Below, in pieces: positions 1 through 64,000 of a DNA stretch of 64,000 nucleotides. The stretch is taken from assembly GCA_030264375.1 (NCBI GenBank), contig JASCQW010000081.1, forward strand, positions 93,040,923 through 93,104,922, given 5' to 3'. The DNA comes from Carcharhinus longimanus. Its lineage: Eukaryota. The position numbers were made by a program. Numbering within the stretch: position 1 is the first letter of the stretch; each line of letters starts with the position of its first letter.

Positions 1-3000
1 ATAGTTTAGCAAACACCTCAAAATATGAAGAGCGGCAATGAGGTACACTTACATTTCTCGAGGAAGAGAGGTATGGACAGTTGACTTCCTGAAATGTTGC
101 CAGGTCTTATGGTCATCTTGTCTCGATCTGCTCAGATGGAGAAGTAAAGCTATTTAATCGATCCAAAGCTCGAAGCACCGCGAAAAAGTGATGGGATTTC
201 AAACGACGTGTCATAGATGTTTGTGGCTACATCGCGTTCTTTCTAGGACGCTAATTATTCTTCTAATTGAAAAGATCCATTATCGCCAGTATTTTGTTTT
301 CAGTCTTGTCGAAAGTAGGTTGACGTGATGGGAAGCATATGGCAAATAATGAATTCCAATTGAGTGAAATCTATTTATTTTCTTGAACTTCCCCATTATG
401 TCGGCCGAGACCACAACTCGAGATTACTCTTACTAGGAGAAAAAACACATATTTTTCAATTCTTTATATTCATTAAAAATGCTCGCTGCCGGACTGACCT
501 AAATTAATACTCATCCGAAGGCGGTGGTGATCTGCATCCATGAAGCCATGCAGACCATGCAGTGCACGGCTACGCACAGTGCTAACGATAAGAATACACT
601 ATTATTTTGATACAGAAATTGATGCACGCCAATATCGGTTAACGTCGGCTGGTGTTGTCTAAGGCTTGGTGTGGCTGAAACCTGAAGTTTCCCGAGGAAT
701 TACGTTTCCACATGTAAGTCGTCAGTTTGTAATTTGCTGTTGGAGTGATTTGATGAATTGCAGCAAACGAATTTTGTGAAAGTAGATGCAAGTGCGTGAG
801 TTTGGCTTGTGTGGGTAAGGCGCTACATGCGGCTTAATGTAGTGGTGGCTGAAGGCGTGCCGCTGATCGTACAGCTGTTTGTTTCCTTTTGGGTATCTTT
901 TAGATGATGAGTTTCGTTGGAGCGTTTTCTATCATAGCAGAATGCGGCAATTCATTCATACTTCTTCATCGTAGGTTGTAGATGTCGAACAGGTCTTTGG
1001 GGAGAAGTTGGGTGGGACAACAGTCGCTGGAAGCTTCCTATCCACTAATCTGCTTTTCTAGCCAGAGTTTATTTTTGGCCAGCACTGTTCAGCTTCCAGT
1101 CAAGAGCGAGTCCAAGGAGTTTGATAACTGTAGATTTACCAATTGTATTGCCAATGAATTTTAATAGACTACGTTTATGCCTTTCTCTTTCTGGGGCACT
1201 ATGTTGCCTCCTGATAATTTGGCCCGGGTCCCAATTGTCTACTTGTCGCACCAAACCGGGAAAGTCTCCATAACTAAAAATGTTCGTAGTCTGACACAGT
1301 TGCATCACTTTACCAGAGTGTATGACCACTCGCTAAGTGAATGATGCGAAATCATTTCTTTCGCGACAATGGTCAAGCATCACTGTATGATAATTGCAAT
1401 CATCTACAACAAACAATGTTCAACTGAACAGATGGACTAGCGACACACAATGTCTGTGGACATGATGTTTCAAGTAAATGAGCGCCCGCGCCAAGAATAG
1501 TTGAAGTCAACTATCACTAAAGACGAAATGTTACATGATCAGATAACGCCAGAGTGCAAGCGGTATGGGGTTAATGTAGCCTGAGCTAAGCAACCATTCG
1601 AAAATGTTACGAGTGACATTGAGGCTCATTTCGCTTGCTAAAGAGAGGTACGGAAGTTTGATCCCTTGATATGTTACCTGATCTTATGTCCATCATGTCT
1701 CGATCTGCTGAAATGCAGCAGTAAGGGCAATTAGTCGTTCCAAAGGTCGAACCGTCCTACAGAACTGATCAGATATCAAATGACATATCATTGACTTACA
1801 TCAGTAATTCGTTTTTTTTTCAACTAACCGCTTTCCTTCTCAACAATCTATCACTTCTTCAATCAAATTAACATTCCATTTGCTGCAGCATCTTCATTCC
1901 GTTCTTGATAAAATGAAGTTGATGTGATTCGAAGCAAAATGGAACTTATGATTTCCAATTGAAGAAACGGTATTTATTTTCTTTGTCTTCCTATTTTTTG
2001 ACGGTCAATAGTATTAACTTTGAATTAGGAATCCCTCCTTCCCTACCAAAAATGAACACGAACTTTTACGGTCTTTATATTCATTCGTGAGAATCACTAG
2101 TTGCCATCTGGAGTTCGAAATAATTCTCGTCAGAAGGTGGAGGTCATCTGCATTCATAAGAACAGCTGCAGAACATTCAACGCATGTGTAACCACAGTGT
2201 TGACGGTACGTGTCTTTTTCTATAATGTTGACAGAGGGAAATTGTTGCACAAACATATATGTTAATGACGGATAATATTAGAATAGGGTGGGGCGCGATG
2301 TCTTGTAAAGGAATTCCTTTTCTACACCATCACGTGTTTGGAATTTGCTTTTGGAGTTGTTTTGATGAATTCGATCAGACGAATATTGTCCAAGATGGTG
2401 AAACAGTGAATGTTTGGCATGTGGGCGAGCGCATTGTTGGTGTCTTGAAGGATTGCTGGTTAACGCAGCGCGTTTGGACAACCTGCCAAGAAACTCCAAT
2501 TCTCACTCTGTTAGCCACTATGCCACATTGCCACTCTAATAATAACAATTCTCACTCCGTTAACCACTGTGTCACCGGGCCACCCTAGTAATTCTAATTC
2601 TCACTCTGTTAGCCACTGTGCCACAGTGCCACACAAGTAATTCCAATCCCCATTGTTAACAACTGTGCCACAGCACCACCCTAGTACTTCTAATTCTCAC
2701 TCTGTTAACAACTATGTTGACGTTGTTGAGTGTTGTTGGAGCTATGCATTTTATAGCATGTCGAGGCTTTTCAATCATGCTCCTTAATTGTACGGTGAAG
2801 TTGTTAAATAGGATTTTGCGGAGGGGTCGGATATAACACGAGATGTGTGACTTGTTTCACAATTCCTATCGTCTAATCTCCTTTTCATTCTTACCACCGT
2901 TCTTATTTATACATTAGCCCCTGTTCTTTTATTAATCAATATAGTCGTCCCGGATTGAAAATGTTGGAAACAACGAATACATTGTAATTTACTCTCGATG

Positions 3001-63000: not shown

Positions 63001-64000
63001 CTCCAGTTCCCTTCCAAACTCCACAGATATGCATGTTAGGTTGATTGGCTATGCTAAGTTGTCCTTTCGCGTTAGGGGGACAAGCAGGTTAAATAGATGG
63101 TCTTAACATGATAGGGTGGCATTTTAATAGGTGTAGGCTTGATAGACAAATGTTTCTTTCCGCACTGTAGAATCGTATTCTACGGCTGGTTTCTGGGCGA
63201 GAGTCGGCTTGAACAGCAGTTTGGTTACTCGCCACATGCTTCCAAGCCCCCTAATCAGCTGATGATATTTACGTTCCTGTCCTCGTTCTGTCTCTGGTCA
63301 TGACTGACTTCGAGGATGTTAATAGCACAGTATCTGGCAATGCTTTTGCCATTCACTGCAATGGGTGAAATTTAGGTATTCTCCCTTCTAGCAGCAGCTA
63401 GTTGACTCACAATTATTCTGCGCAAATGTTGCTTGCCAATTGTCAGCCGAGGTCTGGTAATAAGGAAAACTTGAATTTCAATTGATGGTCTTCAAAATGC
63501 TGATAATCGCTGATAATTCCAGAGGTTTAGCGCAGCGCATAACGAGTCTCACATTAAACAATGCCGGACCTATCATTATTGGGAATGGATGAGCAGTATC
63601 GTGTAACAATTGCAAACAATTTAATCAAACGTTTTTTAACTTGAAAGGATGGCGCAAACATACACAATAGCTGCAGGTATCATTGTACAAAGAAAGTGAA
63701 ATAGAGTTTGAATACATGCCCGATTATTCAGGTATCCGGTATATGCAGACATTTGCGTTCAAGCTTTTTTTAAAATATATACTGCAGTTGATGTGTGGAG
63801 AACGTAATGAGAAACAAACATTTCCAGTTGATAGAAAACTATTTATTTTCTGGTCCTCATTGCACTTTGTTGGATAACAAAAGAATAATCGTGTACGTTA
63901 TTCATCTACATTCATGAAATTAAGCTGTTGCGGGCGAATCAGAGCTTAACGTCAATCCGAAGGTGCGGGTAGCTGCTTCTAAGAAAACCCCATAGGCTAT

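What the first reader, a model, noticed from the sequence alone, without database searches (positions are those of the whole stretch)
1..64000. Ancient >=64-kb head-to-tail array of a LINE-tail + unique-sequence cassette
Seen: ~28-30 same-orientation monomers of ~1.5-1.7 kb run off both ends of the window. Each carries the same 5'-truncated LINE with the same breakpoints, so one insertion was amplified with its flank rather than inserted 30 times. Copies are far more diverged than a homogenised satellite yet remain colinear. Repeat maskers would report only scattered LINE fragments and miss the periodicity. Inference: this resembles tandem intron-exon arrays such as SNORD115/116 or rat Bsr, or TE-embedded small-RNA clusters such as C19MC. 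It is the best candidate here for an undescribed system.
[Added by the scan's program, not by the reader: the finding's places include an assembly gap (unread letters, written N; its length is only estimated) at 24402 to 24501, 40061 to 40427, 43052 to 43238, 46715 to 46814, 55450 to 55468, 60203 to 60302. Whether the letters on both sides are continuous or in frame is not known: test that first.]
Basis: partly seen in the sequence, partly recalled or inferred. Interest (0 to 1): 0.8.

Follow-up and report, generated by a model that had tools for sequence, protein, structure and literature searches.

The report
Old decayed LINE-derived tandem repeat array
At least 64 kb of this shark-type genome is about 30 head-to-tail copies of a 1.7-kb unit, half of it the tail of a broken jumping gene, and the copies have decayed evenly, so it looks like a fossil repeat rather than a working RNA gene cluster.

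Summary
A profile built from 12 near-complete units finds 62 of 62 matches on the + strand. They are colinear and head-to-tail, cover 39,126 of 64,000 bp, and run off both ends. There are 32 whole or partial units, equal to 22.96 units of about 1,677 bp.

About half of each unit is the 3' part of one 5'-truncated endonuclease-type LINE. It covers ORF2 from about residue 693 of 937 onward and lies antisense to the + strand. 25 of 32 units run unbroken across each breakpoint.

The functional analogy (SNORD115/116, Bsr, C19MC) finds no support:
- Conservation is flat: LINE half 0.595, other half 0.609.
- There is no Rfam family, tRNA or conserved hairpin, and no ORF longer than 115 aa.
- Substitutions are strand-symmetric.

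Units are about 60% identical to each other. The tree is star-like, apart from a few later block duplications and many later insertions.

Verdict: an ancient TE-derived macrosatellite that is no longer homogenised. It is a new member of a known kind and of low interest. Transcription, orthology and the array ends could not be tested.

The parts
1..64000 (+). Head-to-tail array of a ~1,677-bp unit: 32 whole or partial units, running off both ends of the window
   Evidence: 62 of 62 profile hits on the + strand, colinear, 39,126 bp covered
53935..55609 (+). Unit 27, a full-length example (columns 2-1677); contains the 19-N gap 55450-55468 at a G-run
25226..26854 (+). Unit 14, a full-length example (columns 2-1678)
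25454..25654 (-). LINE ORF2 remnant inside unit 14 (columns 443 to 237), at the end of the RT domain
   Evidence: tblastn with P0001 residues 692-756, E = 1.4e-4
38038..38241 (-). LINE ORF2 remnant inside unit 18 (columns 403 to 189)
   Evidence: tblastn with P0126 residues 2-69, E = 3.3e-6
2..4464 (+). Units 1-3, the older copy of a three-unit block duplication
   Evidence: 2-2482 against 4924-7440 at 79.8%, 2718-4347 against 7468-9096 at 80.1%; unit pairs 1/4, 2/5 and 3/6 at 81-82%
4474..9348 (+). Units 4-6, the second copy of the three-unit block; it shares the ~335-bp insert at columns ~565-575
12704..19565 (.). ~7-kb interruption of the array; the unit resumes at column 307 after stopping at column 509. 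Holds an integrase-core-like ORF at 14876-15157 (-)
   Evidence: Pfam rve E = 7e-7, 29.9 bits, below the curated cut-off of 32.6; no LTR pair found
26855..31257 (.). ~4.4-kb interruption containing a later LINE fragment at 29476-31101 (+)
33702..35103 (+). Later LINE insertion (ORF2 match 33713-34979); the unit resumes at column 996 after column 993
35686..37084 (+). Later LINE insertion (ORF2 match 35610-36888)
42589..44391 (-). Younger LINE insertion with RT ORFs at 43326-43694 and 43836-44420; holds N gap 43052-43238; the unit resumes at column 1080 after column 1073
   Evidence: Pfam RVT_1 E = 2.4e-12; 77% identity to P0001
51878..52762 (-). Later LINE fragment (ORF2 match 52104-52727); the unit resumes at column 470 after column 458
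59213..60571 (-). Later LINE fragment (59556-60200) followed by N gap 60203-60302

Best explanation
This is a fossil macrosatellite.

Origin. In an elasmobranch-type genome, a LINE encoding an apurinic-type endonuclease and a reverse transcriptase inserted as a 5'-truncated copy. The copy kept ORF2 from about residue 693 of about 937 to the end, plus a short 3' UTR, roughly 0.8 kb in all.

Amplification. That fragment and about 0.85 kb of neighbouring non-LINE DNA were then amplified as one 1.68-kb cassette into at least 30 head-to-tail copies. The mechanism is inferred: unequal crossing-over or replication-based tandem duplication, partly in multi-unit blocks.

Decay. Homogenisation then stopped. 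The units have since drifted apart neutrally to about 60% pairwise identity, lost pieces, and been invaded by later transposons in both orientations. A few later block duplications followed: three units at about 81%, and pairs at 65-71%.

Function. Nothing in the sequence indicates a present sequence-dependent function.

What is shown and what is inferred. Shown here: the array structure, the LINE identity, strand and breakpoints, even decay, and the absence of known RNA families, hairpins and ORFs. Inferred: the amplification mechanism, neutrality, and great age.
For: Array structure.
- 62 of 62 profile hits are on the + strand and colinear. Every interruption resumes at or near the interrupted column.

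LINE identity.
- An unbiased HMMER search of 1.84 billion proteins with a 50-position profile of window fragments (A4) gave 11 hits at E up to 0.001. The 4 single-stretch hits (P0126, P0127, P0130, P0131; 34-40 bits) are LINE ORF2-like fragments.
- The relatives of P0126 include three long proteins. P0135 (937 aa) and P0139 (934 aa) carry Exo_endo_phos, Exo_endo_phos_2 and RVT_1. P0140 (908 aa) carries Exo_endo_phos_2 and RVT_1.
- On the unit consensus, P0135 residues 693-815 align with columns 437 to 54 on the minus strand. P0132 aligns on to column 1321 of the preceding unit.
- In the window itself, 23 of 23 family HSPs that lie inside units are on the minus strand.
- All 66 HSPs of three consensus pieces are on the minus strand.

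Same breakpoints.
- 25 of 32 units are continuous across each end of the LINE part.
- No family protein matches upstream of column 446 at E up to 0.01.

Even decay.
- Pairwise identity is 0.595 in the LINE columns and 0.609 in the non-LINE columns. The 50-column bins range from 0.57 to 0.66, apart from a G-run at 0.48.
- The tree is star-like with long terminal branches.
- Complementary substitution rates have ratios of 0.95-1.11, all with p > 0.09. CpG is retained less (0.48) than other dinucleotides (0.56-0.67).

No functional element.
- 0 Rfam hits at gathering score; only 2 hits at E of 9-10, both in insertions.
- 0 tRNAs.
- No Pfam domain inside units among 131 ORFs of 75 aa or more.
- The longest consensus ORF is 115 aa.
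- No window has mean folding z below -1.35.

Later insertions.
- Later LINE fragments lie 4 on + and 4 on -.

Literature.
- In passages of the review PMC12692304 read: satellite DNAs can derive from LINEs; units over 500 bp with possibly composite structure are called macrosatellites; arrays degenerate once homogenisation lapses.
Against: - Transcription, small-RNA production, chromatin state and orthology were not testable, so sequence-independent roles are not excluded. Examples are heterochromatin, a boundary, or a source of piRNAs.
- Two local conservation maxima reach the edge of the column-permutation distribution. They are columns 1582-1611 at 0.737 against a 99th percentile of 0.731, and columns 876-935 at 0.688 against 0.691.
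- The power of the strand-symmetry test in this lineage is unknown.
- The hairpin scan was coarse: 8 of 32 units, 100-column windows every 40 columns, and 10 mononucleotide shuffles.
- The profile of the third consensus piece (P3) matched none of the 120 proteins of a different LINE family, and its alignment (A3) found nothing in the 5.8-billion-protein search. That part of the LINE assignment therefore rests on the P0126/P0132/P0135 family alignments alone.
- The origin of the non-LINE half is unknown.
Confidence: 0.8

Rival explanations
1. A tandem host-gene array for small RNAs, in the manner of SNORD115/116, rat Bsr or C19MC. Each unit would carry a processed snoRNA, miRNA or exon, and the array would be one long transcription unit.
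For: The units are kb-scale, all in one orientation, and extend over at least 64 kb. The reading cannot be excluded without RNA data.
Against: There is no conserved island; the best 30-column window is 0.737 against a background of about 0.60. There is no Rfam match in any unit even at E up to 10, and no conserved stable hairpin. Substitutions are strand-symmetric. Units are riddled with deletions of 180-1,260 columns and with insertions spread over both halves.
Confidence: 0.04
2. A one-strand piRNA-type source locus. Transcripts of the + strand would carry about 30 antisense copies of a LINE ORF2 tail and feed silencing of that LINE family.
For: All LINE remnants of the units are antisense to the + strand. 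Such loci need no sequence conservation, so flat decay does not argue against this reading.
Against: The shared orientation is explained by tandem duplication of a single insertion. Later LINE insertions show no orientation bias, 4 on + and 4 on -. The remnants are only about 46-52% identical in protein to present-day family members over the matched pieces, which is probably too diverged to target them. No strand asymmetry of substitution is seen.
Confidence: 0.05
3. A composite non-autonomous retroposon, with a non-LINE head and an 0.8-kb LINE tail, that inserted repeatedly into its own copies rather than being duplicated as DNA.
For: Read on the minus strand, the unit has the layout 'head + LINE 3' tail' that LINE-mobilised elements have.
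Against: 25 of 32 units are continuous across the LINE 3' end and its neighbour, without variable tails or 5' truncations at that junction. Multi-unit blocks were copied as DNA. No solo or inverted copy exists in the window; 62 of 62 hits are in array order.
Confidence: 0.05
4. An assembly artefact: a repeat wrongly expanded or joined across the six gaps.
For: There are six N gaps. Three are 100-N placeholders of unknown size, whose flanks cannot be tied together.
Against: Units differ by about 40%, so they are individually unique and easy to assemble. Phase, order and orientation are kept across all gaps, and three gaps fit the expected missing length to within 1-14 bases.
Confidence: 0.02

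Closest known systems
TE-derived satellite DNA or macrosatellite with a composite monomer (review PMC12692304, passages read; PMC5932611 and PMC10702118, search listings and abstracts only)
   Same: It is a head-to-tail array with a unit longer than 500 bp. The unit is built from a transposon fragment plus other sequence. The array spans tens of kb. The life cycle is amplification followed by degeneration.
   Different: This array is at the far, decayed end of that cycle, with about 60% pairwise identity and no sign of ongoing homogenisation. Its chromosomal position and abundance elsewhere in the genome are unknown.
SNORD115/SNORD116 arrays, rat Bsr, C19MC
   Same: They also have kb-scale units in one orientation over tens of kb, with repeat-derived spacer.
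   Different: Those arrays keep a nearly invariant small RNA in each unit. Here no part of the unit is kept, no Rfam family matches and no hairpin is conserved.
Human macrosatellites such as D4Z4 and DXZ4 (recalled)
   Same: They also have kb-scale units, partly made of older repeat fragments.
   Different: By recall, those are homogenised, G+C-rich, and carry an ORF or protein-binding sites. Here G+C is about 0.40, the longest consensus ORF is 115 aa, and unit identity is about 60%.
One-strand piRNA clusters such as flamenco (recalled)
   Same: Transposon fragments all lie antisense to one strand.
   Different: Here one fragment was copied about 30 times, rather than many different elements being captured. 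Later insertions are unbiased in orientation, 4 to 4.

Membership tests
TE-derived macrosatellite | Head-to-tail tandem units longer than 500 bp in one orientation | tested here: met
   62 of 62 profile hits are on +, with unit ends joined to unit starts; the unit is about 1,677 bp
TE-derived macrosatellite | Each unit holds the same transposon fragment with the same breakpoints | tested here: met
   ORF2 residues 693-815 of P0135 align with columns 437 to 54, and P0132 aligns on to column 1321; 25 of 32 units are continuous over each junction
TE-derived macrosatellite | A long array of tens of kb or more | tested here: met
   The array runs off both ends of the 64-kb window; its true length is unknown
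TE-derived macrosatellite | Concerted evolution, meaning high identity between units | tested here: not met
   Median pairwise identity is 0.60. Only units 1-3 against 4-6 reach 81-82%. The array is therefore filed as a decayed, no longer homogenised member
snoRNA/miRNA host arrays (SNORD115/116, Bsr, C19MC) | A conserved small RNA or hairpin in each unit | tested here: not met
   Conservation is flat; no Rfam hit lies in units at E up to 10; mean folding z is never below -1.35
snoRNA/miRNA host arrays (SNORD115/116, Bsr, C19MC) | Transcription of the array as a long, spliced host RNA | not testable with these tools
   No RNA data are available. The substitution spectrum shows no strand asymmetry, which is only indirect evidence
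One-strand piRNA cluster | Captured transposons biased to one orientation | tested here: not met
   Later LINE fragments lie 4 on + and 4 on -; the uniform orientation of the unit's own LINE follows from duplication
One-strand piRNA cluster | Abundant one-strand small RNAs in the germ line | not testable with these tools
   No small-RNA data are available
LINE with apurinic-type endonuclease and RT (origin of half the unit) | Homology to ORF2, colinear with full-length members that carry Exo_endo_phos and RVT_1 | tested here: met
   The clade within this group (CR1, L2 or jockey-like) was not tested by phylogeny

The most novel reading that the evidence does not exclude
The array has survived colinear for a very long time because it is used without needing its sequence. 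It could be a one-strand source of antisense LINE transcripts or piRNAs, or a structural or boundary macrosatellite kept at the same locus across elasmobranchs. Flat decay, the absence of known RNA families and the absence of hairpins do not exclude such a role. Only RNA, chromatin and synteny data would.
Probability: 0.06. Interest if true: 0.6.

Novelty: new member of a known kind. Interest (0 to 1): 0.2.

Why it matters
The array is a clean, fully resolved example of the last stage in the life of a satellite. A transposon fragment and its flank were amplified once and then left to decay, yet remain readable unit by unit. Arrays like this are invisible to period-limited tandem-repeat finders and would be masked as scattered LINE pieces. 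Slowly evolving large genomes may therefore hold many of them, and they can inflate LINE copy counts. Beyond that it is ordinary. Nothing here points to a new system.

Tried and rejected
- TRF found no kb-scale period because of its 500-nt period limit.
- Protein alignments A1 and A2 of minus-strand fragments mixed reading frames or stacked neighbouring segments, and were dropped.
- Alignment A3 (third consensus piece) found nothing at E up to 0.001 among 4,601 candidates in the 5.8-billion-protein search.
- The local profile of the same piece gave 0 rows at E < 0.01 against 120 proteins of another LINE family. The profile of the second piece gave 2 rows. The profile of the first piece gave 39 of 101 rows at E < 0.01, against 0 of 23 rows on reversed decoys.
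- 7 of the 11 hits of the representative search (P0121-P0125, P0128, P0129) are internally repetitive proteins. Many 13-25-residue matches of 1-12 bits add up in them, and they were rejected as spurious.
- tblastn of full-length ORF2 proteins of the other family against single units gave only weak hits. The best was E = 1.4e-4; HSPs inside units were 69 on minus and 25 on plus at E up to 5.
A smaller one was run instead.
- No LTR pair or inverted repeat of 40 bp or more was found in the 7-kb interruption.
- rDNA spacer was considered and rejected: no rRNA is present.
- Independent repeated LINE insertion was considered and rejected: the breakpoints and flanks are shared.
- The window is not taken for human. 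The best named relatives of its younger LINE are from sharks and a ray.
- No spliced gene model was found, so no exon-by-exon search arose.
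Full report
**What the window is**

The window has G+C of about 0.40 and six N runs at the listed places. 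The window is not taken for human. The younger LINE at 43326-43694 (-) has its best named relatives in Scyliorhinus torazame, Chiloscyllium punctatum, Hemiscyllium ocellatum and Mobula hypostoma, at 66-74% identity.

**Checking the observation**

TRF, limited to periods of 500 or less, reports only a 49/96-nt repeat at about 2495-2716 and a 30-nt one at 49164-49221. Self-blastn gives 292 same-strand and 11 opposite-strand non-self HSPs. Their identities are mostly 64-78%, and 60.6% of positions have some partner.

nhmmer with a single unit (25212-26903) gives 55 hits, all on +, with unit ends abutting unit starts. A profile built from 12 near-complete units (1,679 positions) gives 62 hits, all on +, covering 39,126 bp. 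They run from base 2 (column 790) to base 63998 (column 1382). The same profile finds 0 hits in the reversed window, 0 in a mononucleotide shuffle and 3 in a 20-bp block shuffle.

The map shows the pattern expected of an old array:
- Unit after unit runs in register.
- Internal deletions remove about 180 to 1,260 columns.
- Insertions of 0.2 to 7 kb are followed by a return to the interrupted column. Examples are column 993 to 996 across 1.4 kb, 1073 to 1080 across 1.8 kb, and 458 to 470 across 0.9 kb.

Grouping the fragments gives 32 whole or partial units, equal to 22.96 unit equivalents.

**The assembly gaps**

- Gap 40061-40427 separates columns 850 and 1239. That is 374 bp for 388 columns.
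- Gap 55450-55468 sits in a G-run inside an otherwise complete unit of 1,675 bp.
- Gap 43052-43238 lies in the younger LINE, between matches to P0001 residues up to 747 and from 810. That is 186 nt expected against 187 N, so as written the flanks are one base out of frame, which an estimated length allows.
- The three 100-N gaps (24402, 46715, 60203) lie in or next to unalignable or inserted DNA. Order and strand of the flanking units are kept. Whether units are missing there cannot be told.

Nothing was filled in.

**What the unit is made of**

No ORF of the unit consensus exceeds 107 aa, or 115 aa when the consensus is doubled. None of 131 ORFs of 75 aa or more that lie in units has a Pfam domain. 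The minus-strand translation of the consensus nevertheless reads like the end of a LINE ORF2. Three such pieces give 66 tblastn HSPs in the window, all on the minus strand. One of them falls on the window's own younger LINE, at its 'W..KWQM.FN.DKC' motif.

Several formal tests followed:
- A 50-position profile of 13 stop-free window fragments (A4) was searched with HMMER against 1.84 billion proteins. It gave 11 hits at E up to 0.001. Seven are internally repetitive proteins that collect many tiny matches, and I reject them.
- The four single-stretch hits (P0126, P0127, P0130, P0131; 34-40 bits) are ORF2-like fragments.
- Searching with P0126 for longer proteins gave 12 hits at E up to 1e-10. 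P0135 (937 aa) and P0139 (934 aa) carry Exo_endo_phos, Exo_endo_phos_2 and RVT_1. P0140 (908 aa) carries Exo_endo_phos_2 and RVT_1. One basking-shark gene model appears to have absorbed such a fragment.
- Against the doubled unit consensus, P0135 residues 693-715, 717-792 and 779-815 align in order with columns 437-369, 351-133 and 164-54 of the minus strand. P0132 aligns from column 381 through column 1 and on to column 1321 of the preceding unit, with E = 3e-23.
- RVT_1 covers P0135 residues 491-742. The copy in the unit therefore starts inside the last fifth of the RT domain and lacks the endonuclease and most of the RT.
- No family protein matches upstream of column 446 at E up to 0.01.
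- In the window itself, 23 of 23 family HSPs inside units are on the minus strand.

By extrapolation from P0135, the ORF2 stop should lie near column 1365. This is inference. The LINE end lies somewhere between about columns 1285 and 1321. The LINE part is thus about 0.8 kb (columns 1-446 and about 1285/1321-1677). The remaining 0.85 kb or so has no recognisable origin.

25 of 32 units run unbroken over columns 400-500, and 25 of 32 over columns 1250-1350. This is what one amplified insertion predicts. Thirty separate insertions would not give it.

**Is any part of the unit protected?**

- In 50-column bins, the pairwise identity of the copies is 0.57-0.66 throughout. The exception is 0.48 at a G-run or microsatellite at columns 1501-1550.
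- The LINE columns average 0.595 and the non-LINE columns 0.609 (Mann-Whitney p = 0.07).
- The best 30-column window (columns 1582-1611, inside the LINE part) reaches 0.737, against a 99th percentile of 0.731 for column permutations. The best 60-column window (columns 876-935) reaches 0.688, against 0.691. These are marginal bumps and nothing like an embedded small-RNA gene.
- Rfam finds nothing at gathering scores. At E up to 10 it finds only two junk hits, both in insertions.
- There are no tRNAs.
- Folding 8 well-kept units in 100-column windows on both strands gives mean z-scores between -1.35 and +0.96.
- Substitutions from the consensus are strand-symmetric: A>G/T>C 0.95, C>T/G>A 0.99, the others 1.02-1.11, all with p > 0.09. 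CpG is lost somewhat faster than other dinucleotides.

All of this fits unconstrained decay.

**History**

Median identity between units is 0.60 and identity to the consensus is 0.69-0.80. The tree has short internal and long terminal branches, with three weak subfamilies whose members are interleaved along the array. This suggests early copying in multi-unit blocks, which is inference.

Later events are visible:
- Units 1-3 and 4-6 are a three-unit duplication at 80-82%. It carried a ~335-bp insert with it.
- Units 27 and 29 are 71% identical. Pairs 12/15 and 13/16 are 68% identical.

About 25% divergence from the consensus is roughly 0.3 substitutions per site. At vertebrate neutral rates this means an age of the order of 10^8 years. 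The rates are recalled rather than computed here, so this is an order-of-magnitude inference only.

The interruptions hold later LINE fragments of another, related family, four on each strand. They also hold an integrase-like ORF and weak RT-like and env-like matches.

**Comparison with what is known**

Satellite DNAs derived from LINEs and other transposons are established. So are composite units over 500 bp ('macrosatellites') and the degeneration of arrays once homogenisation lapses (PMC12692304, passages read; PMC5932611 and PMC10702118, listing and abstract only).

My searches for shark or elasmobranch satellites brought up nothing that describes such an array. They used the terms 'satellite DNA, shark, tandem repeat, LINE' and 'elasmobranch, satellite DNA, tandemly repeated'. 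The shark karyotype paper PMC11406177 mentions only Y-linked satellites in the passages read.

I therefore file the array as a new, decayed member of a known kind. It fails the one defining feature of small-RNA host arrays that could be tested.

**What stayed unchecked**

- Transcription.
- Orthologous arrays and array ends.
- The origin of the non-LINE half.

Noticed in passing
window 2495-2716: A 49-nt (or 96-nt) tandem repeat, about 4.5 copies at 77-82% match, lies in a ~205-bp insertion between units 2 and 3. The paralogous junction of the duplicated block (7396/7399) lacks it, so it arose or was lost after the three-unit duplication.
   Followed up: partly
window 3211-3554 and 7954-8286 (-); 62913-63047 (+): A ~335-bp insert sits at the same unit column (~565-575) in units 3 and 6, with minus-strand ORFs of 167 and 169 aa across it. 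A related 135-bp piece lies in the opposite orientation near the window end (75% identity). It looks like a short interspersed element by recall only; no tool named it.
   Followed up: partly
window 43683-43881: A 199-bp stretch that is 82% identical to its own reverse complement lies inside the younger LINE, between its two RT ORFs. It could be an inverted duplication or an assembly quirk.
   Followed up: no
window 12704-19565 and 26855-29475: The two largest interruptions share a ~1-kb segment (13293-14313 against 27788-28848, 66%). They hold an integrase-core-like ORF (14876-15157 -, E = 7e-7, below Pfam's cut-off), a weak RT match (12806-13111 +, E = 0.008) and a weak retroviral-envelope-like match (27556-27795 -, E = 0.004). 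No LTR pair was found. These are degraded LTR-type or other elements, left unclassified.
   Followed up: partly
protein hits: Proteins labelled Klebsiella pneumoniae, Proteus mirabilis and Carnobacterium maltaromaticum are 57-72% identical to this window's LINE RT, which suggests vertebrate DNA in bacterial assemblies. Some shark gene models carry LINE ORF2 pieces, which suggests chimeric annotation. Examples are an inositol polyphosphate phosphatase and a histidine N-acetyltransferase-like protein of S. torazame, and an exoribonuclease 1 isoform of Cetorhinus maximus.
   Followed up: no
unit columns ~1229-1263, e.g. window 55150-55190 in unit 27: On the + strand the non-LINE half ends in an A-rich run, with ATTAAA about 18 nt upstream in the consensus. 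It abuts the LINE 3' end tail to tail. This could be the tail of an old retrocopy. The run is short and poorly kept in the copies.
   Followed up: partly
window 55420-55449: A GT-rich stretch followed by a run of more than 20 G leads straight into the 19-N gap. The same unit column is the least conserved part of the unit, probably a length-variable microsatellite that is hard to sequence.
   Followed up: no
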